From an uncultured Gammaproteobacteria bacterium (GTDB taxonomy: Bacteria > Patescibacteriota > Microgenomatia > Levybacterales > GWA1-39-11): a DNA stretch of 64,000 bases. A model generated the notes under the pieces. It was not told the DNA's origin and did not search any database. It saw only the letters and a program-made list of their open reading frames with translations. Each line of letters opens with the position of its first letter. The stretch's first letter is position 1. A program made the translations under genes and the position numbers. Positions 34,023-62,053 of the stretch are shown one piece after another. Location of the stretch: positions 64,557 through 128,556 of the forward strand of contig CAYPEN010000003.1 of assembly GCA_964409875.1 (NCBI GenBank), in the 5' to 3' direction.

Positions 34023-34202
34023 TTAGACGCTTGTGTGTTGTATGGTAGTCGAGGTTTTTTGCAATGACTCCATCATGTTGCGCTTTGTTTCCTCAAGATT
34101 CTGGGTATTAGAATCTGCCGCTTCTTGTAATGTTTTGGTTGTGATATTTTTTGGGTTGCCGTGGTCTTCATCCGGCATTCCGCATCCGCAATTCATACAC
34201 AT
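34023..34202 (-). CDS. Unannotated 59-aa Cys-rich small protein (MCMNCGCGMPDEDHG...) with a strong RBS
   Basis: GGAGGTG sits 7 nt upstream of the ATG at 34202. A cluster of 4 Cys in the first 8 residues. Below the 60-aa ORF-track cutoff. Confidence 0.55.
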   Translation of the reverse strand: MCMNCGCGMPDEDHGNPKNITTKTLQEAADSNTQNLEETKRNMMESLQKTSTTIQHTSV

Positions 34203-34333: not shown

Positions 34334-36034
34334 ATGAAAGAATTTGTTACAGGACAAGTCGAAAAACAACACGAGCAAGCATTTGGTAGAGTAGTTTCGC
34401 TTCAGGAAAAGCGAGGGATAGCTCCCATTCATGATCCATTCAAAAACGAATGGCAGGCTCTTTTGCCGGAAAAGCAATATGGGGATGTAACGCTTCCTTC
34501 TGCCAATGCTGCTTTTATTGCCTCATATAAAGATGCGCTTGCAAAGGGTAAATTTGAAGAGTTTAAAGAAAACATCCCTGAGTCAGATTTTTCGGGTATT
34601 TATAGGGTGAGGGCAGTTAACCCGACAAATGAGAAAGACAAAATTGCTGCGGCAAATTATTCGCCTGAGTCAATAGATAGTCTTGAAAAACGCCTGGCTG
34701 AATTTTTGAGGAAAATTGAAGGGTCGAATATAGCACCGGAGTATAAAGCCGAGTATAGAAAGAGAATTCAAAACGGCGAGATGCAGCATTTAAAAATGGC
34801 AAGAAACCTTGGTGCTGTTGAGTACACGATAGAACAAAAAATCCCTTCCGATTGGAGTAATTTTGTAGATTTAGAAAAAACGCTACAGCAAAAGACAATA
34901 GTACTTCCGTATGAGGATTTAGCACAAAAACTTTTGGAAAAAAGCAAAAAGTCAAAAGAGCATCCCGTAAGAACAATGAAGGATGCGTTAAACTTTTGGG
35001 AATTGACTGATGCTGAAAAGCAGGAAGTTGGATATGATAATGTGACGGATGATACGAAGACTCTTTCCAATAAGCAAACGGTAGCGTTGCTTAATATTGT
35101 GCTTAAGCGTTATAAGCTATTTGACTGGAAAAGCGTTGCAGACCCCGCAGTTACTGCAATAAATGATTCGTCACGTGAAAAAGAAATGCAGGTGCCTTCA
35201 GACCGGGAATTTGACAGTGCGGATGCGATATTTATCCCCGGACATGAGACCGTCCATTCAGTATCGGTTGAAAACGGGCAGAGGCAAGAATTTGGACTTT
35301 TGTGGGAAGGAGTTTTTGATTATTTGAAAACCGAAGAGGGGAAAGCATCTGCAAATGAACTAATATTAGGTCTTTCAAACATCGACTCTCGCCAAGTTAA
35401 GCTTTATGGAAGGTATATGGCAGTTGCTATGGCACTTAAAGCAGATGTAAAAGACGGAAAGCCGCAACCGCGCTTTTCTACACAGAAGATTTACGACACA
35501 CTGAAGGATTACGGAGTGCGCGAGTTGGATGCGAAAGACATAGTGTGGAGGATAATGCGTGGCACAACCTTAAGGCACAAAGGGGTGATGATTCCAGTTG
35601 ATGATGGAAAAAGGAATATCGTAGAAATTCCTTCGGCAGAATGTTTTGTAAAGGACGCTTTATATTTTGAAGGACAAAGACAAGTCTTTGAGTGGTTGAG
35701 GGCGAGAATGCCGGTTAAAGCTGGACACAGGGCATCCGTCACAACAAAAACCGAAGACTTCTCTGATAAAACCCTTGCTCGAGTAGGGCTTAAGGCGCAT
35801 GAAATGGAAGAGGGTAAGGTAGTGAATTTAAAGTACCGCGAGGCGAAAAAACAATACCCGTCATGGGTTAAAAAAGGAAGAGAAACACTTTTAACGCTTA
35901 ATAATTTGACCGCCGCAGGCAAAATCAGGCTTGATATGTTAACGGAAAGTTCTTTTTGGGAGCAGAATCTGAAGTTTGGCAGGCAGAACGGACAAATAGA
36001 TTTACAAGATATTTTTACTCCCTCAAAAACTTAA
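34334..36034 (+). CDS. Large orphan soluble protein (566 aa) with an HETVH (HExxH) motif
   Basis: No signal peptide and no TM helices. Highly charged. No family recognised. Confidence 0.6.
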   Translation: MKEFVTGQVEKQHEQAFGRVVSLQEKRGIAPIHDPFKNEWQALLPEKQYGDVTLPSANAAFIASYKDALAKGKFEEFKENIPESDFSGIYRVRAVNPTNEKDKIAAANYSPESIDSLEKRLAEFLRKIEGSNIAPEYKAEYRKRIQNGEMQHLKMARNLGAVEYTIEQKIPSDWSNFVDLEKTLQQKTIVLPYEDLAQKLLEKSKKSKEHPVRTMKDALNFWELTDAEKQEVGYDNVTDDTKTLSNKQTVALLNIVLKRYKLFDWKSVADPAVTAINDSSREKEMQVPSDREFDSADAIFIPGHETVHSVSVENGQRQEFGLLWEGVFDYLKTEEGKASANELILGLSNIDSRQVKLYGRYMAVAMALKADVKDGKPQPRFSTQKIYDTLKDYGVRELDAKDIVWRIMRGTTLRHKGVMIPVDDGKRNIVEIPSAECFVKDALYFEGQRQVFEWLRARMPVKAGHRASVTTKTEDFSDKTLARVGLKAHEMEEGKVVNLKYREAKKQYPSWVKKGRETLLTLNNLTAAGKIRLDMLTESSFWEQNLKFGRQNGQIDLQDIFTPSKT

Positions 36035-46351: not shown

Positions 46352-47026
46352 TTAGGAATTTTTTGTTGAAAAGAGAAGAACGAATTCTCCTTTGGGTTGT
46401 TTGGTTGAATAGAGTTTTGTCAATTCCGAAGCTTTGTTTGAAAAGATATCCTCATGTATTTTTGTAAGTTCGCGTGCGACCGTTATTTCGATATCATCAA
46501 ACACTCCCTTTATCAATTCCAAAGTTTCACAAATTCTGTGTGGCGACTCATAAAGGACAACTGTTGTCTCAAGACTTTTAACCGACTCAAGATTTTTTAT
46601 AGCTTTTGACCTGGTTTTTGGGAGGAACCCTAGAAAAACAAACTTATCGGTTGGAAGACCAGAAGAAGAAAGTGCTGTAATGAGCGCTGACGGTCCGGGA
46701 ACCGGAATGACTCTTATGCCGCGTTTTCTTGCTTCAGAAACCAACCGGTAACCAGGGTCTGAGATAAGTGGGGTGCCCGCATCGGAAACAAGCGCAACAT
46801 CAACTGTTTTAAGAAGGCTTAGCGCCTCATACAGAACGTTTTCTTCATTGAATTCATTAAAAGGAATAAGTCTGCCGTTTTTTATCTCATATTTTTCCAA
46901 CAACTTTTTTGTCTGACGCGTATCCTCGCAAAGAACTGCCCCAACCTCATTTAAGGTCGAAAGAGCTCTTGAAGTAATATCTTGCATGTTGCCGATTGGA
47001 GTTGCTACAATGTACAAATTGCCCAT
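46352..47026 (-). CDS. rsmI: 16S rRNA (cytidine1402-2'-O)-methyltransferase RsmI
   Basis: LYIVATPIGN...CEDTR motifs of the tetrapyrrole methylase-fold RsmI family. Confidence 0.9.
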   Translation of the reverse strand: MGNLYIVATPIGNMQDITSRALSTLNEVGAVLCEDTRQTKKLLEKYEIKNGRLIPFNEFNEENVLYEALSLLKTVDVALVSDAGTPLISDPGYRLVSEARKRGIRVIPVPGPSALITALSSSGLPTDKFVFLGFLPKTRSKAIKNLESVKSLETTVVLYESPHRICETLELIKGVFDDIEITVARELTKIHEDIFSNKASELTKLYSTKQPKGEFVLLFSTKNS

Positions 47027-47638
47027 ATGTTAGAAATTGTCTCACATTTTATCATAAGCTTCATCCAATCTACCTCCTATCTCGGAATTTTTGTTCTTAT
47101 GGGCCTCGAGTCAGTGCTGATTCCTATTCCATCAGAAATTACAATGCCGTTCTCAGGATTTCTTGCTTCCCAAGGAACCTTGAATTTGTGGCTCGTTATA
47201 GTAACGGGAACGATAGCAAATCTTGTCGGGAGCCTTATTGCGTATTACATCGGATATTTTTTAGAAGAAACCGTTCTTTTGAAGCTTATCAGAAAATATG
47301 GGAAGTTTATACTTGTTTCTGAGAAAGAATACCGTCATGCAGAGCATTGGTTCCAAAAATACGGAGATAAAATCATTTTCATTTCCCGTCTACTCCCTGC
47401 TGTAAGAACCGTTATATCTCTACCCGCAGGAGTGTTCAGGATGAACATGAAGAAATTTGTTATTTACACTACGGTTGGGTGCTTTCTCTGGTCGGCATTC
47501 CTGACATATGTTGGATACGTCATGGGTGAGAATTGGAAAGCCCTAGACCCTTACTACCGAAAATTTGAGTACCTAATCCTTGCTGCCATCATTTTTGGCG
47601 GGATATATTTTGTCGTCAGAAAAATCCGTAAAGGTTAG
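47027..47638 (+). CDS. dedA: DedA family membrane protein
   Basis: SNARE-associated/DedA motif region (GLESVLIPIPSE...). Confidence 0.85.
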   Translation: MLEIVSHFIISFIQSTSYLGIFVLMGLESVLIPIPSEITMPFSGFLASQGTLNLWLVIVTGTIANLVGSLIAYYIGYFLEETVLLKLIRKYGKFILVSEKEYRHAEHWFQKYGDKIIFISRLLPAVRTVISLPAGVFRMNMKKFVIYTTVGCFLWSAFLTYVGYVMGENWKALDPYYRKFEYLILAAIIFGGIYFVVRKIRKG

Positions 47639-47640
47639 AA

Positions 47641-47769
47641 GTGGAACAACAAGTATCTATTCGATCCCAAGATTGTCCTGTTTGTTGTGCCCCAATGGGA
47701 GATATGCCAGGTTCAAGAGATGCTGTTTGTCACAAGTGTGGATATAAAGACCCTTGCTGTGAGTGTTAA
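47641..47769 (+). CDS. Unannotated 42-aa Cys-rich micro-ORF (GTG start; ...DCPVCCAPMGDMPGSRDAVCHKCGYKDPCCEC)
   Basis: 8 Cys in 42 codons within the dedA/lexA convergent gap. AAAGG lies upstream of the GTG. In-frame through to a TAA at 47767-47769. Confidence 0.4.
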   Translation: MEQQVSIRSQDCPVCCAPMGDMPGSRDAVCHKCGYKDPCCEC

Positions 47770-48419
47770 TTTACCGGAGAAAATTTGCGGACTAAGCCTG
47801 TCACAACCCCCTGGATTCTACATTCATTTGGGTAAATCGGTTCCATTTCGCTGTTTGACGGCATCAAGACAATTCTTCCCTCCTTTTTATAGAAGCGCTT
47901 AAGAGTTGCAAGACTGTCATCAACAAGTGCAACGACGATATCTCCTTCATTGCAAACGTCGGTTTTTTCAACTACTACAAAGTCTCCATCAAAAATTCCG
48001 TCTTCAATCATAGAATTTCCTTTTACTTGCAGCGCATAAGAAGTACGTTTGCCCGAAATCATTGAAGAGGCGACATCAAGAGTAGCTTCGGGGTCGGTGT
48101 GGGGTTCCAAAGGTTGGCCAGCAGCGATAAATCCCATAAGCGGAAGGGAGATGGTGGTGCCTACGCCTTTTACTTTCTCGCCGATGAGTGCGCCTATTTG
48201 GTCTTTTTTGAGGATTTTTAACGTTCTCATGTTGCCGTCAACCTTTTGAAGATACCCTTTTTCAACAAGGCCACGGATCAATGAATGGATAGTTGACGGG
48301 GCTCTTCTGTTCATAGCATCTGCCATTTCCCGAAGCGTTGGCGAGTATCCGTTTCTTTCCTGGAATTGCCAGATGAATGTTAGGAGTTCGCGTTCTCTTC
48401 GGTATAAAACTGCTGTCAT
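47766..48419 (-). CDS. lexA: LexA repressor (S24 peptidase)
   Basis: N-terminal wHTH and a C-terminal S24 domain with catalytic Ser (KGNSM) and Lys (KRF) motifs. Confidence 0.9.
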   Translation of the reverse strand: MTAVLYRRERELLTFIWQFQERNGYSPTLREMADAMNRRAPSTIHSLIRGLVEKGYLQKVDGNMRTLKILKKDQIGALIGEKVKGVGTTISLPLMGFIAAGQPLEPHTDPEATLDVASSMISGKRTSYALQVKGNSMIEDGIFDGDFVVVEKTDVCNEGDIVVALVDDSLATLKRFYKKEGRIVLMPSNSEMEPIYPNECRIQGVVTGLVRKFSPVN

Positions 48420-48597
48420 AATCTTATAGGTGATATTTGATGGTTAATAATTGATAGAAAAAAGTTTAATTAATTTAACAAAAAACTATACTAAATTTAT
48501 ACGAAAAATATACGAAGGTTGTCAAGAGATGCAATGTGTAACAAACTATAGCAACTTTGAATTGGCTTCTCGATTTCCCATCCTTTAGCCTCAAAAG

Positions 48598-48608
48598 TGT
48601 GGTACAAT
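48598..48608 (+). promoter_or_regulatory. Extended -10 element (TGgTACAAT) for uvrB with a very short leader
   Basis: TACAAT at 48603-08 is preceded by TG. The uvrB ATG is at 48618. Confidence 0.45.
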
Positions 48609-48617
48609 ATAATTTCT

Positions 48618-50591
48618 ATGTTCGATCTAATTTCAAAATACCAACCGACAGGAGACCAGCCTGCAGCCATCAAAAAATTGTCGAAAGGTTTGGAAAAGGG
48701 AGTAGACAACCAAGTGCTTCTTGGGGTAACCGGAAGTGGCAAAACATATACAATTGCAAACGTTATCAAAAATTACGGGCGTCCTACTCTGGTCATGTCT
48801 CACAATAAAACTCTCGCCGCGCAATTGTATCAGGAACTAAGAGATTTTTTTCCCAATAATGCGGTAAGTTACTTCGTTTCGTATTACGATTACTATCAAC
48901 CTGAAGCATATATCCCAACAACCGATACATACATTGCAAAAGAGACAGAAATAAATGACGAAATAGATAAGCTGAGGCTTGCAGCTACCACGAATCTCTT
49001 AACCCGTCCGGACACAATTGTCGTTGCATCGGTTTCATGTATCTATAACTTAGGATCTCCTCAAGAGTATGGAAAATATACGCTTGAAGTAGCAGTAGGA
49101 GAAAAGGTAAGCAGAAATTCCATCATAGATAGGCTTTTGGATTTGATGTATCAGAGGAATGACTACAATTTTAAGAGAAGTACCTTTCGGGTAAGGGGAG
49201 ATGTGGTGGAGGTTTTTCCCGGATACGAAGACAAATCGTTTCGCATAACATTTAATGGTGATTTTATCGAAAAGATAGAGCAGGTGGATCCGCTTACGGG
49301 GGATATTATTGAGAGCCGTAGGTTTGCTGTTGTGTACCCCGCAAAGCACTATATGACCGACGCAGCTACCTATGAACAAGTTTTTGACCAAATCCGAAAA
49401 GATATGCAACAGCAAGTCAAAAAATTCGAGAAAGAAGGAAAGCTTGTTGAGGCGCAAAGGATACGGCAGCGGACCGAATATGACCTTAAAATGATCAAAG
49501 AATTAGGGTATGTGAATGGCATTGAGAATTATTCCCGATATTTTGACGGACGCGCTCCTGGCGACCCCCCTTATTCGCTTTTGGAGTTTTTCAATCATGT
49601 CTCAAAAGACTGGCTCCTTGTTCTTGATGAATCGCATATGACTATTCCGCAAATACGGGGAATGTATAACGGGGATAGGGCACGAAAAGAGACACTTATC
49701 GATTACGGGTTCCGTCTTCCGGCAGCGTATGACAATAGGCCTTTGAAGGCCGACGAATTTTGGCAAAAGGTAAAGAAGACCATTTACATGTCGGCAACGC
49801 CCGATGAATACGAGCTTGATAAATCAGGGAAAGAAAATATTGCAGAACAATTGATAAGACCAACTGGAGTTGTCGATCCCGAAATTGAAATTAGACCAAC
49901 TGACGGTCAAATTCCCGATCTAATGCAAGAAATTGAAAAAGTAGTGAAAAAAGGAGAACGGGTTTTGGTGACGACCCTCACGAAAAGAATGTCTGAGGAT
50001 TTGACAACCTTTTTGGAAGAAAAAGGGATAAAAGTAAATTATCTCCATTCTGATGTCGATACGTTATCTCGCCAGGATGTATTGGACGATCTACGCAGCG
50101 GCGTCTATGACGTTTTGGTCGGCATCAACTTGTTGCGTGAGGGATTAGATTTGCCCGAAGTAGGGCTTGTTGCGATACTGGATGCTGATAAAGAAGGGTT
50201 TTTGCGTTCACGAAGCTCCTTAATCCAAATTATGGGAAGAGGTGCTCGGAGGGTTGATTCTCATGTAATACTGTATGCCGATGTACATACAAAATCTATT
50301 GAAGCCGCAGTGGCTGAGGTTGAGAGACGGCGCGAGTATCAGCTGAACTACAACAAAGAGCATGGAATTACCCCTCAAACTATTGAAAAAGAAATCAGGG
50401 CAAAACTGATTGAGCGGGAGAAAGTGTTGGAAGACCTTAAGCCGCTCATCGAAAAAGATGTTCTGCTGCCCGATGAGCGGGAAAAAGTGATAAAGACATT
50501 AAGAAAAGAGATGCAGCTTGCCGCAAAAGACTTGGATTTTGAAACCGCAGCTCAACTCCGCGACAAAATACGTTTTTTACAGCAACAATAG
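48618..50591 (+). CDS. uvrB: Excinuclease ABC subunit B
   Basis: Helicase motifs (GVTGSGKT), the beta-hairpin region and a C-terminal UVR domain. Start at MFDLISKY. Confidence 0.95.
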   Translation: MFDLISKYQPTGDQPAAIKKLSKGLEKGVDNQVLLGVTGSGKTYTIANVIKNYGRPTLVMSHNKTLAAQLYQELRDFFPNNAVSYFVSYYDYYQPEAYIPTTDTYIAKETEINDEIDKLRLAATTNLLTRPDTIVVASVSCIYNLGSPQEYGKYTLEVAVGEKVSRNSIIDRLLDLMYQRNDYNFKRSTFRVRGDVVEVFPGYEDKSFRITFNGDFIEKIEQVDPLTGDIIESRRFAVVYPAKHYMTDAATYEQVFDQIRKDMQQQVKKFEKEGKLVEAQRIRQRTEYDLKMIKELGYVNGIENYSRYFDGRAPGDPPYSLLEFFNHVSKDWLLVLDESHMTIPQIRGMYNGDRARKETLIDYGFRLPAAYDNRPLKADEFWQKVKKTIYMSATPDEYELDKSGKENIAEQLIRPTGVVDPEIEIRPTDGQIPDLMQEIEKVVKKGERVLVTTLTKRMSEDLTTFLEEKGIKVNYLHSDVDTLSRQDVLDDLRSGVYDVLVGINLLREGLDLPEVGLVAILDADKEGFLRSRSSLIQIMGRGARRVDSHVILYADVHTKSIEAAVAEVERRREYQLNYNKEHGITPQTIEKEIRAKLIEREKVLEDLKPLIEKDVLLPDEREKVIKTLRKEMQLAAKDLDFETAAQLRDKIRFLQQQ

Positions 50592-59716: not shown

Positions 59717-62053
59717 CTAAGGAAGACAGTTATTTGTGCATTCAACGGAATCCCTTCTCTTAAAAAGATAGAAATTGTTTTTCGTGTCTTGGACAAGTGC
59801 CGTATATTTCACATGTGTAACAGAATTAACGAATGATTTTTTTTCACCGTACAAAACAACATAATCGGCTTTATCCATGGCAAAAGGAACAACATAAATA
59901 TTCTCTCTATGGGAAAGATGGGCCCCAATGTTATTCGAGGCACTCACGGAGGCATTGGGGGGAATTAGCGAAAGGTATCGTGATATCTCAGATGTATTTT
60001 GAGCAACATACGGCCTGTAATCTGCATCCTTCATCGCCGGAATAGGTGAGTAGAAATATGCACTGATAACGGCGGCGAACAAAATATAATAAAAAAGGAT
60101 TTTGTTAAGTTTTATGTGGGAAAATTTACGGCTCAGGTTTTTTATGCCATACATTGTTGAAATATAAACAAAAGGCACGATTATTGCACCATAATGGTAA
60201 TGATAGGAGCGGAGATTTTGATTGCTTGAGAGGAGGCTAATTGCCATATCGGGCAATGTAAAAATAAGATATAAGGGGTTTAATAATGCTAAATATCCGG
60301 TGGGGACTAGAAGCTGATGCAGGTAGGTTAGCGAGGAAAGACTTAACAGGTGACTAATGATAATTTGGGGATGAAGTAAAAGGTTTTTGACAATTCCCTG
60401 CGTTGAGCCTCCTAAATATGAATAGTATGAAAGAGCAAAATGAGTAGTTCCGCGTGCGTTCGGGATAGCCTTTGAAGTAAGGTAGAAAAAAATAAGAGTG
60501 GGGAGAATTGTCAGGATGAGCCCCGGTATGATTTTCTTCTGTTTGACTATAAGGTAGAGACCAAAAATGCTTGCAACGAGAAAGACATTTTCTTTTGTCA
60601 TAACAGAGAGTGCAAGAAAAAGAACGAATAATATATACCGTCTTTTCAATAAAAAGTAAAAGGTGGCCAGCAGAAGTGTGGTGCCGATACTTACCGCATG
60701 AAAGTCAAAAATATTCTGTTCATGTATCCAGAAATTCAGTAAAAATGACAGGGATAATGCCAGTGAGAGTTTATCGTTTTTTAAAATCTCCTTAGATAGC
60801 AGAAATATGACTATTCCACCTAGGGCAAGGGCTAAAGATTGGGTTATCAAAAGCACTTTAGGGTCCGACCAAAGAAAATAGAGAGGTGCAAATAAAACAA
60901 GCAGGATATCGGAATGGTCGGCAAGCCTGGATATTTTTTCAGTGCCGTCAGGATTTGTCAGCATGAAAAAATTTCCTTTCGAAGTGTTCCAAACGGTTTG
61001 GGACATGTTACCTAAGTCAAACCTTCCTGAAAGGTATGCGTCATGTCTTGTAAGAGTGTAGGATGTAAAAAAAATAAAGTAGAGAAGGGATGCGGTAACA
61101 GTTATCAAAATATAAGGATTTATCTTTAGTAACTTTGAGTTGCTTTTCATGTGCCCAATTGCATAGGCAACAAAAAGATATAAAAGCTCGCCTATAACCA
61201 TACCAATACGGGTGAGAATTGCAACAACAGACGCAATCGAAACCGGAAGGAATAATGAAAGACTTCCAACAATGACAAGCTCTCTTATTCCAAGCCCCAT
61301 AGGTGTAATAAATAGCAGATACCCCGCAAGCCAAGAGAGGACAAAAAATGAAAGCATGAAGACTGTATTGGTAGGATAAATGTAGGTGAATGAAAGTGCG
61401 ATAAAAAAACAACCGAGGGCATAGAGTATCCATGCAAGCATAAAGAGGAGAAGACTGTCAAAATATTTGGTGACCGTGTTTCTGAATTTGAGGTAGGAAA
61501 TTCCACATATAAGTGAGAAAAGAGAAGCAAGAACTACGGTGGGGACAAAAAAAGGCACACTATGAAGTTCCCGCGCCTTAAAAAGAGGGTATGTAAGTGC
61601 CGGTACGGATACTATTAATGCAGAAAGGGCAAGCAGAAGTGCTTCGATTCCGATGCCTTTCAGCGTTTCTTTATGGGGAACTTCATCGGAGAGTGCATGC
61701 ATTCTTCCCATGAACGCAAAAACACTTCCAGGTATATATCTTTTAATTTCTGAGAGAGAATACTTCCAAATAGTTTTTCGGGGCGAAAGCTCATACCCCC
61801 TCTTTTTTAATATCTCAAGCCAAATGAGGGATTTAATTCCAAAAAAAGTAGCAAAGAAAATAACACCAATTAAAAAAAGTATGGGGTTAACCGAAAGAAG
61901 TGAGTGAAAAATAAGTGTTCGGTTATCGAAAAATATCTTGAAAATGAAAATGAACGCAAGCACAGTAACAGGAATTCCTAAGAATTTCCTGAGAAGTTGT
62001 TTTGCTCTTTGCATGGGAAAATTAGGACTCGAAGCGTATTGGTGGTTGGTCAT
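59717..62053 (-). CDS. Fusion membrane protein: N-terminal flippase-like (LPG-synthase TM) domain plus C-terminal DUF2079 GT-C-like glycosyltransferase
   Basis: 778 aa with more than 20 predicted TM segments. RFDLGNMSQTVWNT matches the DUF2079 signature region. Confidence 0.6.
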   Translation of the reverse strand: MTNHQYASSPNFPMQRAKQLLRKFLGIPVTVLAFIFIFKIFFDNRTLIFHSLLSVNPILFLIGVIFFATFFGIKSLIWLEILKKRGYELSPRKTIWKYSLSEIKRYIPGSVFAFMGRMHALSDEVPHKETLKGIGIEALLLALSALIVSVPALTYPLFKARELHSVPFFVPTVVLASLFSLICGISYLKFRNTVTKYFDSLLLFMLAWILYALGCFFIALSFTYIYPTNTVFMLSFFVLSWLAGYLLFITPMGLGIRELVIVGSLSLFLPVSIASVVAILTRIGMVIGELLYLFVAYAIGHMKSNSKLLKINPYILITVTASLLYFIFFTSYTLTRHDAYLSGRFDLGNMSQTVWNTSKGNFFMLTNPDGTEKISRLADHSDILLVLFAPLYFLWSDPKVLLITQSLALALGGIVIFLLSKEILKNDKLSLALSLSFLLNFWIHEQNIFDFHAVSIGTTLLLATFYFLLKRRYILFVLFLALSVMTKENVFLVASIFGLYLIVKQKKIIPGLILTILPTLIFFYLTSKAIPNARGTTHFALSYYSYLGGSTQGIVKNLLLHPQIIISHLLSLSSLTYLHQLLVPTGYLALLNPLYLIFTLPDMAISLLSSNQNLRSYHYHYGAIIVPFVYISTMYGIKNLSRKFSHIKLNKILFYYILFAAVISAYFYSPIPAMKDADYRPYVAQNTSEISRYLSLIPPNASVSASNNIGAHLSHRENIYVVPFAMDKADYVVLYGEKKSFVNSVTHVKYTALVQDTKNNFYLFKRRDSVECTNNCLP

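What the first reader, a model, noticed from the sequence alone, without database searches (positions are those of the whole stretch)
47641..47769. Unannotated 42-codon Cys-rich ORF (8 Cys) in the dedA/lexA convergent gap
The frame reads ...QDCPVCCAPMGDMPGSRDAVCHKCGYKDPCCEC*. Cys codon density is about 19%, against roughly 3% expected by chance. A GTG follows AAAGG immediately after the dedA stop, and ATG is an alternative start. It could be a metal-binding micro-protein or a ribosomal peptide precursor. It shares a CxxC(C)...MP..D flavour with the 59-aa protein at 34023-34202.
Basis: seen in the sequence. Interest (0 to 1): 0.6.

Follow-up and report, generated by a model that had tools for sequence, protein, structure and literature searches.

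The report
Unannotated conserved zinc-ribbon microprotein gene
The 42-codon cysteine-rich reading frame between dedA and lexA is a real gene that gene callers missed; it encodes a small, probably zinc-binding protein from an unnamed family conserved in well over a hundred candidate-phyla-radiation species, and its function is still unknown.

Summary
Window 47641-47769 (+) encodes MEQQVSIRSQDCPVCCAPMGDMPGSRDAVCHKCGYKDPCCEC. It starts at a GTG 2 nt after the dedA stop, behind AAAGG, and overlaps the lexA stop by 4 nt.

It is a true gene. Relatives occur in at least 138 species genomes (mostly Levybacteria/Microgenomates) and at least 391 metagenome stretches. Across 80 distinct core sequences:
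- dN/dS is about 0.13.
- Third codon positions vary about 2.7 times more than first and second positions.
- Only this frame stays open in all 80.

Six Cys are invariant: CPxC, 14 residues, CxxCG[FY]KDPCC, then E and stop. That is a C4 zinc-ribbon signature plus a vicinal Cys pair at the extreme C-terminus. Cys16 and Cys42 are window-specific; Cys42 looks like a TGA-to-TGT stop loss.

No Pfam, NCBIfam, PDB or literature match exists beyond generic zinc-ribbon resemblance. The RiPP-precursor idea is not supported: no maturase appears in about 160 loci. The claimed likeness to the 59-aa ORF is also unsupported; that ORF is on the minus strand and BLASTP finds no alignment.

Gene neighbourhoods differ between lineages, so the partner is unknown. 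My best guess is a Zn-stabilised docking module with a thiol-active swinging CC tail. This is a new member of a known kind and of moderate interest.

The parts
47630..47634 (+). Shine-Dalgarno-like AAAGG, 6 nt before the GTG start and inside the last codons of dedA
   Evidence: Read directly from the sequence. Close homologues start at the same distance, 11 codons before the first Cys, behind AAAGGA/GGAG-like motifs.
47641..47769 (+). Small protein gene: 42 codons plus TAA, GTG start
   Evidence: ORF list. 22 close homologues at E 5.6e-15 to 5.9e-5. 138 species genomes. dN/dS about 0.13. The frame is open in 80 of 80 relatives, while other frames are interrupted in 23-79 of 80.
47674..47685 (+). 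First zinc knuckle, C12-P-V-C15 (family consensus CPxC[G/K])
   Evidence: C12, P13 and C15 are invariant in A1. Both Cys are invariant in all 80 distinct core sequences, each using TGT and TGC.
47686..47688 (+). Cys16, a window-specific extra cysteine; relatives have K/G/E/Q here
   Evidence: Per-codon table.
47695..47727 (+). Hyper-conserved hairpin loop M-G-D-M-P-G-S-R-D-A-V, the probable docking surface
   Evidence: D21 to V29 are invariant in A1. G-[ST]-[RK]-x-A-[VI] is kept even in distant subfamilies. Ser uses both AGY and TCN codons, and Arg uses both AGA and CGN.
47728..47742 (+). Second zinc knuckle, C30-H-K-C33-G34 (family consensus CxNCG)
   Evidence: C30, C33 and G34 are invariant in all 80 core sequences; C30 and G34 are invariant in A1, where C33 is missing only from the irregular sequence P0021. 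The AF2 model places short beta-strands around both knuckles. The best structural matches are C4 zinc ribbons at rmsd 1.2-1.6 A, but E is 0.4 or worse.
47743..47763 (+). C-terminal tail Y-K-D-P-C39-C40-E41, with a vicinal Cys pair at the family's C-terminus
   Evidence: K36, D37, P38, C39, C40 and E41 are invariant. All 83 other genome-derived copies stop right after E. Other subfamilies end in CC, CCY or CCF.
47764..47769 (+). Extra Cys42 codon TGT plus stop TAA; probably a TGA-to-TGT stop loss that extends the ORF by one codon into the lexA stop
   Evidence: Relatives have TAA (40), TAG (32) or TGA (11) at this codon; the close relatives L010 and L012 read GAG TGA. An identical GAG TGT TAA occurs in the independent assembly L169.
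47027..47638 (+). dedA (VTT-domain, UptA-like membrane protein), the upstream co-directional gene; its stop lies 2 nt before the small gene's GTG
   Evidence: PF09335, E 3.3e-25. The NCBIfam UptA models score 143 and 138 bits, below their cut-offs of 250 and 300. The start at 47027 follows the 203-aa gene call in L169.
47766..48419 (-). lexA, convergent, with a 4-nt tail-to-tail overlap with the small gene
   Evidence: TIGR00498, 175.6 bits against a cut-off of 110.95. Coordinates.

Best explanation
Shown: the ORF is a translated, selectively maintained gene for a roughly 40-residue cytoplasmic microprotein of an unnamed family.

Strongly inferred: the two invariant knuckles (CPxC, 14 residues, CxxCG) fold as a C4 zinc ribbon around one structural metal ion, most likely Zn2+.

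Inferred mechanism:
- The ribbon serves only as a scaffold.
- It presents the hyper-conserved G-S-R-D-A-V hairpin as a docking surface for a conserved partner.
- It also presents a short flexible C-terminal tail, K-D-P-C-C-E-COOH, whose vicinal thiols do the chemistry. That chemistry would be thiol-disulfide exchange or hand-over of a soft metal. The model is the swinging C-terminal Cys-pair tails of ribonucleotide reductases, MerA and high-Mr thioredoxin reductases.

In this genome the gene is probably co-transcribed and translationally coupled with dedA. The extra terminal Cys42 is a recent stop-loss and Cys16 a private substitution. The partner is not identified.
For: Real gene:
- 22 close homologues, 74 representatives of 50%-identity clusters with E up to 0.001, 138 species genomes and at least 391 metagenome stretches.
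- dN/dS about 0.13 with saturated dS, and invariant residues encoded by 2-6 synonymous codons.
- Variability at codon positions 1, 2 and 3 is 0.156, 0.148 and 0.408, and only frame +1 is open in 80 of 80.

Zinc ribbon:
- Invariant CPxC and CxxCG motifs.
- The AF2 model (pLDDT 67) shows short hairpins.
- All top Foldseek PDB hits are C4 zinc ribbons (TFS4 7oqy_Y, PriA CRR, ribosomal zinc-ribbon proteins, NudC) at rmsd 1.2-1.6 A over 27-29 columns.
- Sub-threshold Pfam and NCBIfam hits are all zinc-ribbon families.

Tail:
- The CC pair is invariant and followed by at most one residue in the genome and metagenome loci examined, apart from the window and L165, and by at most three in nearly all other family members.
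- The only experimentally studied close analogue is a Zn(Cys)4 site plus a terminal redox Cys at the very C-terminus of class II RNR, which acts as an electron shuttle (PMC5704485).

Coupling to dedA: a 2-nt spacer, an SD-like motif inside dedA and no terminator between the genes.

Neighbours in other lineages have a redox or metal flavour: SufBD-SufS-SufU-ferredoxin and OFOR, Bcp peroxiredoxin, a VIT1 iron transporter, an FNR-like reductase and a cupredoxin.
Against: - No expression or metal-binding data exist.
- The AF2 confidence is only moderate and no structural match is significant (E 0.4 or worse).
- A redox or metal-transfer role for the CC tail rests purely on analogy.
- No neighbour is shared across lineages, so no partner is supported.
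- The redox/metal flavour of the neighbourhoods was not tested against a background.
- The DedA/LexA arrangement is seen only in this genome, so coupling to dedA may be incidental.
Confidence: 0.55

Rival explanations
1. It is a zinc-ribbon adaptor or regulator that binds RNA polymerase, DNA or RNA. Models are the N-terminal ribbon of archaeal TFS/Rpb9 and small CPxCG zinc-finger regulators such as Brz. In this reading the CC tail is structural or a second metal site.
For: The best structural hit is the TFS4 N-terminal ribbon bound to RNAP (7oqy_Y). One distant member (P0093) passes the Pfam threshold for Zn_ribbon_RPB9 (27.9 against 25.2 bits). NCBIfam TFS4/TFS hits recur at E 0.001-0.06. Brz shows that a small CPxCG protein can regulate transcription (PMC2253796). 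DNA-repair or transcription genes lie nearby in several lineages: LexA/UvrB/UvrA here, UvrA/AlkA/MutL/MutS in L039, L052 and L056 (UvrA alone in L064), endonuclease IV and a GreA-like gene in other subfamilies.
Against: The conserved core is neutral to acidic rather than basic (sequence). The window protein itself has no such hit. All these matches fit any CPxCG...CxxCGY ribbon. The neighbouring genes are mostly on the opposite strand and differ between lineages.
Confidence: 0.15
2. It is a rubredoxin-like Fe(Cys)4 or small Fe-S electron carrier. The six Cys would bind iron or a cluster and the protein would shuttle electrons, for example within Suf/ferredoxin/OFOR pathways.
For: Nine genome loci place the gene after SufBD-SufS-SufU (with a ferredoxin in three of them) and before 2-oxoacid:ferredoxin oxidoreductase. 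Others place it beside VIT1, an FNR-like protein or a nitroreductase. The knuckle chemistry is the same as in rubredoxin.
Against: There is no rubredoxin or Fer4 Pfam hit. The inter-knuckle spacing is 14 residues, against about 29 in rubredoxin (recalled, not tested here). No aromatic core is evident. Most loci have no Fe-S context.
Confidence: 0.1
3. It is a free-standing relative of the class II ribonucleotide reductase (NrdJ) C-terminal Cys-rich tail. It would act in trans as the electron donor, or a partner, for NrdJ.
For: Many members weakly hit the last roughly 30 positions of the NrdJ profile PRK08665. Patescibacteria NrdJ ends in DLCPSCG-x9-GCxKCxxCG[YFH]S[KE]C*, with the same CPxCG...CxxCG[FY]...C-terminus layout. 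hhalign in local mode aligns both knuckles over 25 columns at P 3.9e-5. In L073 the gene sits in an NrdJ-MazG-small gene-ASCH-CobO cluster. The physiological reductant of the CRD is unknown (PMC5704485).
Against: The Cys pattern differs: there is no Cys three residues before knuckle 2, and a CC pair replaces the single terminal C. The 150-220-aa CRD body is absent. All 120 Patescibacteria NrdJ examined carry their own six-Cys tail. An unrelated zinc ribbon (DUF5679) scores just as well in hhalign (22.9 against 21.0). Only 1 of about 165 loci is next to NrdJ.
Confidence: 0.07
4. It is a precursor of a ribosomally synthesised, post-translationally modified peptide whose Cys residues are modified.
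For: It is short and Cys-rich, and Cys lies at the C-terminus as in some lanthipeptide or AviCys precursors (recalled, not tested here).
Against: No maturase, protease or exporter recurs next to it in about 160 loci. Contexts are housekeeping operons. Conservation is uniform over a fold-like domain with a variable N-terminus, the opposite of a leader/core design. It is single-copy where examined. There is no SCIFF or other Cys-rich-peptide NCBIfam hit for the window protein.
Confidence: 0.03
5. It is a chance open frame in the dedA-lexA spacer.
For: Cys richness alone is not far beyond six-frame chance, with about 0.7 windows expected. Gene callers did not call it.
Against: Family-wide purifying selection and frame conservation. 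There is no Rfam match that would explain the spacer otherwise.
Confidence: 0.01

Closest known systems
Generic C4 zinc ribbons, e.g. the N-terminal ribbon of archaeal TFS/TFS4 and eukaryotic Rpb9/RPA12 (PF02150)
   Same: CPxCG, then 14-17 residues, then CxxCG[YF] knuckles. Predicted beta-hairpin fold. Best structural match is 7oqy_Y at rmsd 1.6 A over 28 columns and 39% identity. One distant member passes the Pfam threshold.
   Different: It is free-standing at about 40 aa with no second domain. It has an invariant GSRDAV loop and a KDPCC(E) terminus that those ribbons lack. The window protein has no hit, and nothing links it to RNA polymerase.
C-terminal Cys-rich domain (CRD/NrdJb) of class II ribonucleotide reductase (Loderer et al. 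2017, PMC5704485)
   Same: Six conserved Cys at the very C-terminus. Four are proposed to hold Zn in a ribbon-like site and the rest to act as a redox shuttle on a terminal tail. The domain can be encoded as a separate gene (NrdJb). The local motif layout CPxCG...CxxCG[FY]xx(x)C-end is shared.
   Different: The CRD is 150-220 aa and this protein is 41-68 aa. The Cys spacing differs (CX2C-X9-10-C-X2-C-X2-C-X4-5-C against CX2C-X14-CX2C-X5-CC). Similarity is no better than to an unrelated ribbon. It co-exists with tail-bearing NrdJ.
Small CPxCG-type zinc-finger microproteins of haloarchaea (e.g. Brz, PMC2253796; Haloferax small proteome, PMC10117724)
   Same: Proteins under 70 aa built around CPxCG-type knuckles, often missed by annotation. 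Function depends on partner binding rather than catalysis.
   Different: There is no detectable sequence relationship: NCBIfam HVO_0649, HVO_2142 and Brz hits appear only for distant members, at E 0.016 or worse. The taxa differ (CPR and other bacteria), and those proteins have no CC tail.
Swinging C-terminal vicinal-Cys tails of MerA (...SCCAG) and insect thioredoxin reductase (...SCCS); recalled from my own knowledge, not tested here
   Same: A vicinal Cys-Cys pair within 0-3 residues of the C-terminus on a flexible tail, used to pass Hg(II) or electrons to or from a buried centre.
   Different: Those tails belong to large flavoenzymes. Here the tail hangs on a 30-residue zinc ribbon with no catalytic domain. 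This is analogy only.
DUF5679 (PF18930), another roughly 47-aa zinc-ribbon gene of the same genomes
   Same: Similar size, two CxxC knuckles and the same clade. It lies convergent just downstream of this gene in most Levybacteria loci.
   Different: It is a different family. Only one knuckle aligns, over 13 columns. It has a longer 26-residue spacer, no CC tail and is basic.

Membership tests
C4 zinc ribbon (structural class) | Two CxxC knuckles separated by a hairpin-forming spacer, invariant across the family | tested here: met
   C12/C15 and C30/C33 are invariant in 80 of 80 distinct core sequences. The CPxC and CxxCG context is conserved.
C4 zinc ribbon (structural class) | Beta-hairpin ribbon fold superposable on solved zinc ribbons | tested here: inconclusive
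   AF2 pLDDT is 67.3, with short strands. The top Foldseek hits are all zinc ribbons at rmsd 1.2-1.6 A, but E is 0.4 or worse.
C4 zinc ribbon (structural class) | Stoichiometric Zn2+ bound by the four Cys | not testable with these tools
   Needs ICP-MS or PAR assay on purified peptide.
Class II RNR Cys-rich C-terminal domain (CRD/NrdJb) | Six-Cys array CX2C-X9-10-C-X2-C-X2-C-X4-5-C ending the protein | tested here: not met
   The family pattern is CX2C-X14-CX2C-X5-CC(-E). All 120 Patescibacteria NrdJ tails follow the NrdJ pattern.
Class II RNR Cys-rich C-terminal domain (CRD/NrdJb) | A 150-220-aa domain preceding the Cys array | tested here: not met
   Family members are 39-101 aa with variable, unconserved N-termini.
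Class II RNR Cys-rich C-terminal domain (CRD/NrdJb) | Profile-level homology to NrdJ tails beyond generic ribbon similarity | tested here: inconclusive
   hhalign against NrdJ tails scores 21.0 (P 3.9e-5, 25 columns). Against the unrelated DUF5679 it scores 22.9 (P 3.6e-5, 13 columns).
Class II RNR Cys-rich C-terminal domain (CRD/NrdJb) | Genetic linkage to nrdJ(a) | tested here: not met
   NrdJ is nearby only in L073, out of 87 loci searched with tblastn. There is no RNR among the window's ORFs of 500 aa or more (uvrA and uvrB identified).
RiPP precursor peptide | Co-located maturase, protease or exporter genes | tested here: not met
   Neighbours are glycosylation, Suf, Bcp, VIT1, purine, DNA-repair and similar genes. 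No maturase-type gene appears among the Pfam-labelled or hand-inspected neighbours.
RiPP precursor peptide | Leader/core architecture | tested here: not met
   The N-terminus is variable in length and sequence. The entire C-terminal 32 residues are conserved as one unit.
SCIFF and other curated Cys-rich peptide families (NCBIfam) | Match to the family HMM above its cut-off | tested here: not met
   The window protein has 0 NCBIfam families at E up to 1.
Rubredoxin | Match to rubredoxin HMMs | tested here: not met
   There is no rubredoxin Pfam hit. Only weak RUBY_RBDX/rubrerythrin-like knuckle hits appear in two distant members. The spacer here is 14 residues.
Zn_ribbon_RPB9 (PF02150) | Score above the gathering threshold of 25.2 bits | tested here: inconclusive
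   P0093 scores 27.9 bits; P0031 and P0036 score 19.9 and 18.7. The window protein and close relatives have no hit.
Same family as the 59-aa ORF at 34023-34202 | Detectable sequence similarity | tested here: not met
   BLASTP finds no alignment at E up to 100. That ORF is on the minus strand.

The most novel reading that the evidence does not exclude
The family is a stand-alone 'swinging thiol tail' module: a trans-acting Zn-ribbon microprotein whose terminal Cys-Cys pair delivers electrons or a soft metal to a conserved enzyme that lacks a known physiological donor. Candidate partners are the class II RNR Cys-rich tail, whose reductant is unknown, or the polyprenyl-phosphate glycosylation machinery. 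The gene follows GT2-GtrA/PMT2 in most Levybacteria and an UptA-like DedA here. If so, it would be a new minimal redox or metallochaperone currency in reduced CPR genomes.
Probability: 0.12. Interest if true: 0.7.

Novelty: new member of a known kind. Interest (0 to 1): 0.42.

Why it matters
It adds a strongly conserved microprotein family, which gene callers miss in at least this genome, to the small core proteome of Microgenomates/Levybacteria. Relatives occur in other, high-GC bacteria. CPR genomes are reduced, so a 40-residue protein kept under strong purifying selection in more than 100 species is likely to serve an important partner.

The invariant C-terminal Cys-Cys tail on a zinc ribbon is a simple, testable design for thiol or metal transfer. 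Practically, the finding shows that 40-codon genes with GTG starts and tail-to-tail overlaps escape annotation. It also provides a motif, CPxC-x14-CxxCG[FY]KD[PSD]CC, that can recover them.

Tried and rejected
- Pfam, NCBIfam and PDB-sequence searches of the peptide, diverse members and the family profile gave only sub-threshold generic zinc-ribbon hits.
- Rfam on 46800-48700 found nothing, so no RNA explains the spacer.
- Exact look-up of the 42-aa product and of the 218-aa DedA ORF found nothing on record. The LexA look-up then showed that the same DNA exists in another assembly with the gap left uncalled.
- I looked for the orthologous DedA-small gene-LexA arrangement in about 165 related loci and found none.
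- NrdJ-tail homology: one search with only the 69-aa tail found no candidates and was wasted. A full-length NrdJ search gave 120 tails. hhalign with a DUF5679 control showed the similarity is not specific.
- A shared neighbour across lineages was sought in 80 genome loci, 80 metagenome loci and extra look-ups. None was found.
- The viral collection holds no relatives. A literature search for the motifs found no papers. No cluster member carries a name.
- The four long proteins in the representative search were set aside: the three inspected (P0026, P0045, P0094) are repetitive artefacts, and P0028 (10 matched stretches) was not inspected.
- The promoter/terminator scan found no more than shuffled sequence gives.
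Full report
**What is in the sequence.** Window 47641-47769 (+) is an open frame of 42 codons with a GTG start, encoding MEQQVSIRSQDCPVCCAPMGDMPGSRDAVCHKCGYKDPCCEC.
- The GTG lies 2 nt after the stop (TAG, 47636-47638) of a DedA/VTT-domain gene. An AAAGG motif sits 6 nt upstream of the GTG.
- The ORF's last 4 nt overlap the stop of a convergent lexA gene at 47766-48419 (-).
- Eight of 42 residues are Cys (19%). That compares with 2.85% in six-frame open segments of the window and 0.63% in its long ORFs.
- Composition alone is not compelling. A naive binomial estimate expects about 0.7 such windows in the six-frame translation, and an off-frame segment near 61277 (-) reaches 9 Cys.
- No Rfam family matches the spacer. 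The promoter/terminator scan finds no more than shuffled sequence gives, and no terminator between dedA and the ORF.

**It is a real gene that gene callers missed here.**
- An independent Logan assembly (SRR11845633, L169) is 100% identical over the 201 bases aligned around the ORF, including the ending GAG TGT TAA. Its gene calls leave the 127-nt lexA-dedA gap empty. The exact product is not on record anywhere in the collection.
- The peptide nevertheless has 22 close homologues of 41-68 aa (E 5.6e-15 to 5.9e-5, none with a Pfam domain).
- It has 74 hits with E up to 0.001 among representatives of 50%-identity clusters, about 70 of them short proteins with the motif at their C-terminus. The three long hits I inspected are repetitive artefacts.
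- Relatives occur in 138 species-representative genomes, almost all Levybacteria, Microgenomates or other Patescibacteria. At least 391 stretches occur in metagenome contigs.
- Across 80 distinct core nucleotide sequences, pairwise dN/dS is about 0.13 with saturated dS.
- Invariant residues are written with 2-6 synonymous codons. Gly34 and Pro38 use all four codons; the near-invariant Ser25 uses both AGY and TCN and Arg26 both AGA and CGN.
- Variability at codon positions 1, 2 and 3 is 0.156, 0.148 and 0.408. The annotated frame is open in 80 of 80 sequences, whereas the other five frames are interrupted in 23-79 of 80.
- The chance-ORF reading is therefore refuted.

**Anatomy of the family.** The consensus is a variable N-terminus followed by (L/I)R(T)Q-x-C-P-x-C-x3-(M/I)-G-D-M-P-G-S-R-D-A-(V/Y/I)-C-x-N-C-G-(F/Y)-K-D-P-C-C-E-stop.
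- Six Cys are invariant: C12, C15, C30, C33, C39 and C40.
- All 83 other genome-derived copies stop directly after E. Only the window copy reads CCEC.
- At that codon, relatives carry TAA (40), TAG (32) or TGA (11). The close relatives L010 and L012 read GAG TGA. The window's GAG TGT TAA is therefore best explained as a TGA-to-TGT stop loss that adds one Cys and creates the 4-nt overlap with lexA.
- Cys16 is also private to this genome; relatives have K, G, E or Q there.
- The alternative ATG at Met19 would remove the first invariant knuckle. The GTG lies 11 codons before the first Cys, exactly like the ATG starts of L005 and L008.
- More distant subfamilies from high-GC bacteria of undetermined phylum keep the same skeleton. 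They end in ...CRRCGYKDDCC-stop or ...CxNCGFKDSCC(Y/F)-stop.
- The hallmark is thus a CPxC, 14-residue spacer, CxxCG ribbon plus a vicinal Cys pair. In the loci examined that pair is followed by at most one residue (the window and L165 have two), and by at most three in nearly all other family members.

**Fold.** AlphaFold2 with the 23-sequence alignment gives a moderate model (pLDDT 67.3) with short beta-strands flanking both knuckles.
- Foldseek against the PDB returns no significant hit (best E 0.4).
- Nearly all the top matches are C4 zinc ribbons: the TFS4 N-terminal ribbon (7oqy_Y), the PriA Cys-rich region, archaeal ribosomal zinc-ribbon proteins, RPA12 and NudC. They superpose at rmsd 1.2-1.6 A over 27-29 columns.
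- Sequence-profile searches agree. Only sub-threshold zinc-ribbon families appear: TFS4, S27ae, RPB9, Zn_ribbon_3 and the NrdJ C-terminus.
- One distant member (P0093) just passes the Pfam threshold for Zn_ribbon_RPB9 (27.9 against 25.2 bits).
- No paper in the library contains the motifs, and no cluster member carries a name.

**Genomic context.** The window's DedA/LexA arrangement is unique among about 165 related loci. The orthologous-gap test therefore could not be run. The gene has relocated during evolution. The contexts found:

| Context | Loci |
|---|---|
| Ends a co-directional array of three epimerases/dehydratases, GT2-GtrA and a PMT_2 (GT-C) glycosyltransferase, often overlapping the PMT_2 stop by 4-8 nt. 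In 7 loci a HAD or phosphoribosyltransferase gene is inserted. A convergent DUF5679 zinc-ribbon gene and DUF4446-DUF3048-SecDF lie downstream. | about 31 of 80 genome loci, plus about 7 truncated ones with the same downstream genes |
| Follows SufBD-SufS-SufU (a ferredoxin in three) and precedes 2-oxoacid:ferredoxin oxidoreductase | 9 |
| Follows a Bcp peroxiredoxin | 5 genome loci, plus metagenome loci |
| Follows a VIT1 iron transporter | 3 (4 share the downstream genes) |
| Near an FNR-like reductase (directly upstream in L085) | 2 |
| Near UvrA; in three loci also flanked by an AlkA-like glycosylase, MutL and MutS | 4 |
| Sits in an NrdJ-MazG-small gene-ASCH-CobO cluster | 1 (L073) |
| YKDDCC subfamily: beside a divergent cupredoxin and a convergent GreA-like gene | about 11 each |
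| KDSCCY subfamily: beside a divergent endonuclease IV, with HemL downstream in about 6 | about 11 |
| One variant in a phage-like run of small genes | 1 (L170) |

- No relatives occur in the viral collection.
- No neighbour is shared across lineages. No maturase-type gene appears among the neighbours that were labelled.
- Two soft themes recur, redox/metal genes and DNA-repair genes. I could not test either against a background.
- The window's DedA is UptA-like (143 bits against a cut-off of 250). DedA/UptA proteins recycle undecaprenyl phosphate (PMC11474028, PMC12893004). GT2-GtrA/PMT_2 enzymes also use polyprenyl-phosphate carriers (my own knowledge). That gives two independent contexts touching the same lipid cycle. 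It is a lead, not a finding.

**Comparison with the class II RNR tail.** Many members weakly hit the last roughly 30 positions of the NrdJ profile.
- Loderer et al. (PMC5704485) showed that most class II RNRs end in a Cys-rich domain. Its six terminal Cys hold Zn and shuttle electrons to the active site. The domain can be a separate gene (NrdJb), and its physiological reductant is unknown.
- All 120 Patescibacteria NrdJ sequences I retrieved end in DLCPSCG-x9-GCxKCxxCG(Y/F/H)S(K/E)C-stop. The layout is similar to this family's.
- The Cys spacing differs, and the 150-220-aa body of the domain is absent here.
- The small gene co-exists with tail-bearing NrdJ (L073).
- hhalign scores the family no better against NrdJ tails (21.0, P 3.9e-5, 25 columns) than against the unrelated DUF5679 ribbon (22.9, P 3.6e-5, 13 columns).
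- I therefore use the RNR tail as the best functional analogy. I do not file the family as a member.

**Most likely mechanism.**
- Shown: a conserved, selected, protein-coding microgene.
- Strongly inferred: a Zn(Cys)4 ribbon.
- Inferred by analogy: the ribbon is a scaffold. It displays the invariant G-S-R-D-A-V hairpin for docking and a flexible K-D-P-C-C-E tail whose vicinal thiols carry out thiol-disulfide exchange or soft-metal hand-over. The models are the swinging C-terminal Cys tails of RNRs, MerA and high-Mr thioredoxin reductases (the last two from my own knowledge).
- In this genome, the 2-nt spacing and the SD-like motif inside dedA suggest translational coupling to dedA.
- Rivals are a polymerase- or nucleic-acid-binding ribbon (0.15), an Fe or Fe-S carrier (0.10), a trans-acting RNR-tail relative (0.07), a RiPP precursor (0.03) and chance (0.01 or less).

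- The 59-aa ORF at 34023-34202 is on the minus strand (MCMNCGCGMPDEDHGNP...). It is a called gene in the Logan assembly and has no Pfam or NCBIfam hit.
- It shows no BLASTP alignment to the 42-aa peptide. The suggested kinship is not supported.

**Verdict.** It is a new member of a known kind. Interest is moderate because the partner and chemistry remain to be found.

Noticed in passing
window 34023-34202 (-): A 59-aa ORF, MCMNCGCGMPDEDHGNP..., with an N-terminal CxxCxC cluster. It is called as a gene in a Logan assembly, has no Pfam or NCBIfam hit, and is unrelated to the 42-aa peptide.
   Followed up: partly
window 34334-36034 (+): A 566-aa protein with a MATCAP domain (PF08014, tubulin tyrosine carboxypeptidase-like metalloprotease), E 1.7e-11, in what looks like a CPR genome.
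   Followed up: no
window 47024-47029: rsmI (46352-47026, -) and dedA (called start 47027, +) are divergent with a 0-nt spacer. Their promoters must therefore lie inside each other's coding regions.
   Followed up: no
window 48420-48596: The lexA-uvrB divergent spacer dips to about 29% GC. It holds a tandem ATACGAA-N5-ATACGAA (about 48500-48518) and the palindrome GTTTAATTAATTTAAC (48464-48479). These are candidate operator sites; I did not compare them with other SOS genes.
   Followed up: no
L008-L087 record titles: Dozens of MAG records titled 'uncultured Gammaproteobacteria bacterium' (CAY*/CAZ* accessions) share the Levybacteria-type synteny seen in records labelled Levyibacteriota. The titles look like placeholders or mislabels.
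   Followed up: no
L073:7-3938: A cluster of NrdJ (824 aa, with its own six-Cys tail), a MazG-like pyrophosphohydrolase, the small Cys gene, an ASCH-domain gene and a cob(I)alamin adenosyltransferase. It is the only locus linking the family to ribonucleotide reduction. The neighbour labels other than NrdJ are by eye.
   Followed up: partly
L170:1-10171: The family variant P0050 (...CRRCGWKDGCC) lies in a run of about 20 short same-strand genes with almost no Pfam hits (DUF7352 and Methyltransf_21 only). This looks phage- or prophage-like.
   Followed up: no
L001:6593-6736 (-) and equivalent positions in most Levybacteria loci: DUF5679, another roughly 47-aa basic zinc-ribbon gene (MYCVKC...CPVCG), lies convergent just downstream of the small Cys gene. 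It forms a conserved pair of zinc-ribbon microgenes.
   Followed up: partly
L013:8979-10991; P0097, P0106, P0112, P0115: The OFOR beta subunit in L013 (670 aa) appears to be intein-interrupted. Several Patescibacteria NrdJ proteins (about 1160-1210 aa) carry intein or LAGLIDADG domains (PF14528, PF14890).
   Followed up: no
window 61277 region (-): An off-frame 42-aa segment with 9 Cys lies inside the DUF2079 membrane-protein gene (59717-62053, -). It shows that Cys-rich frames arise by chance in this composition.
   Followed up: no
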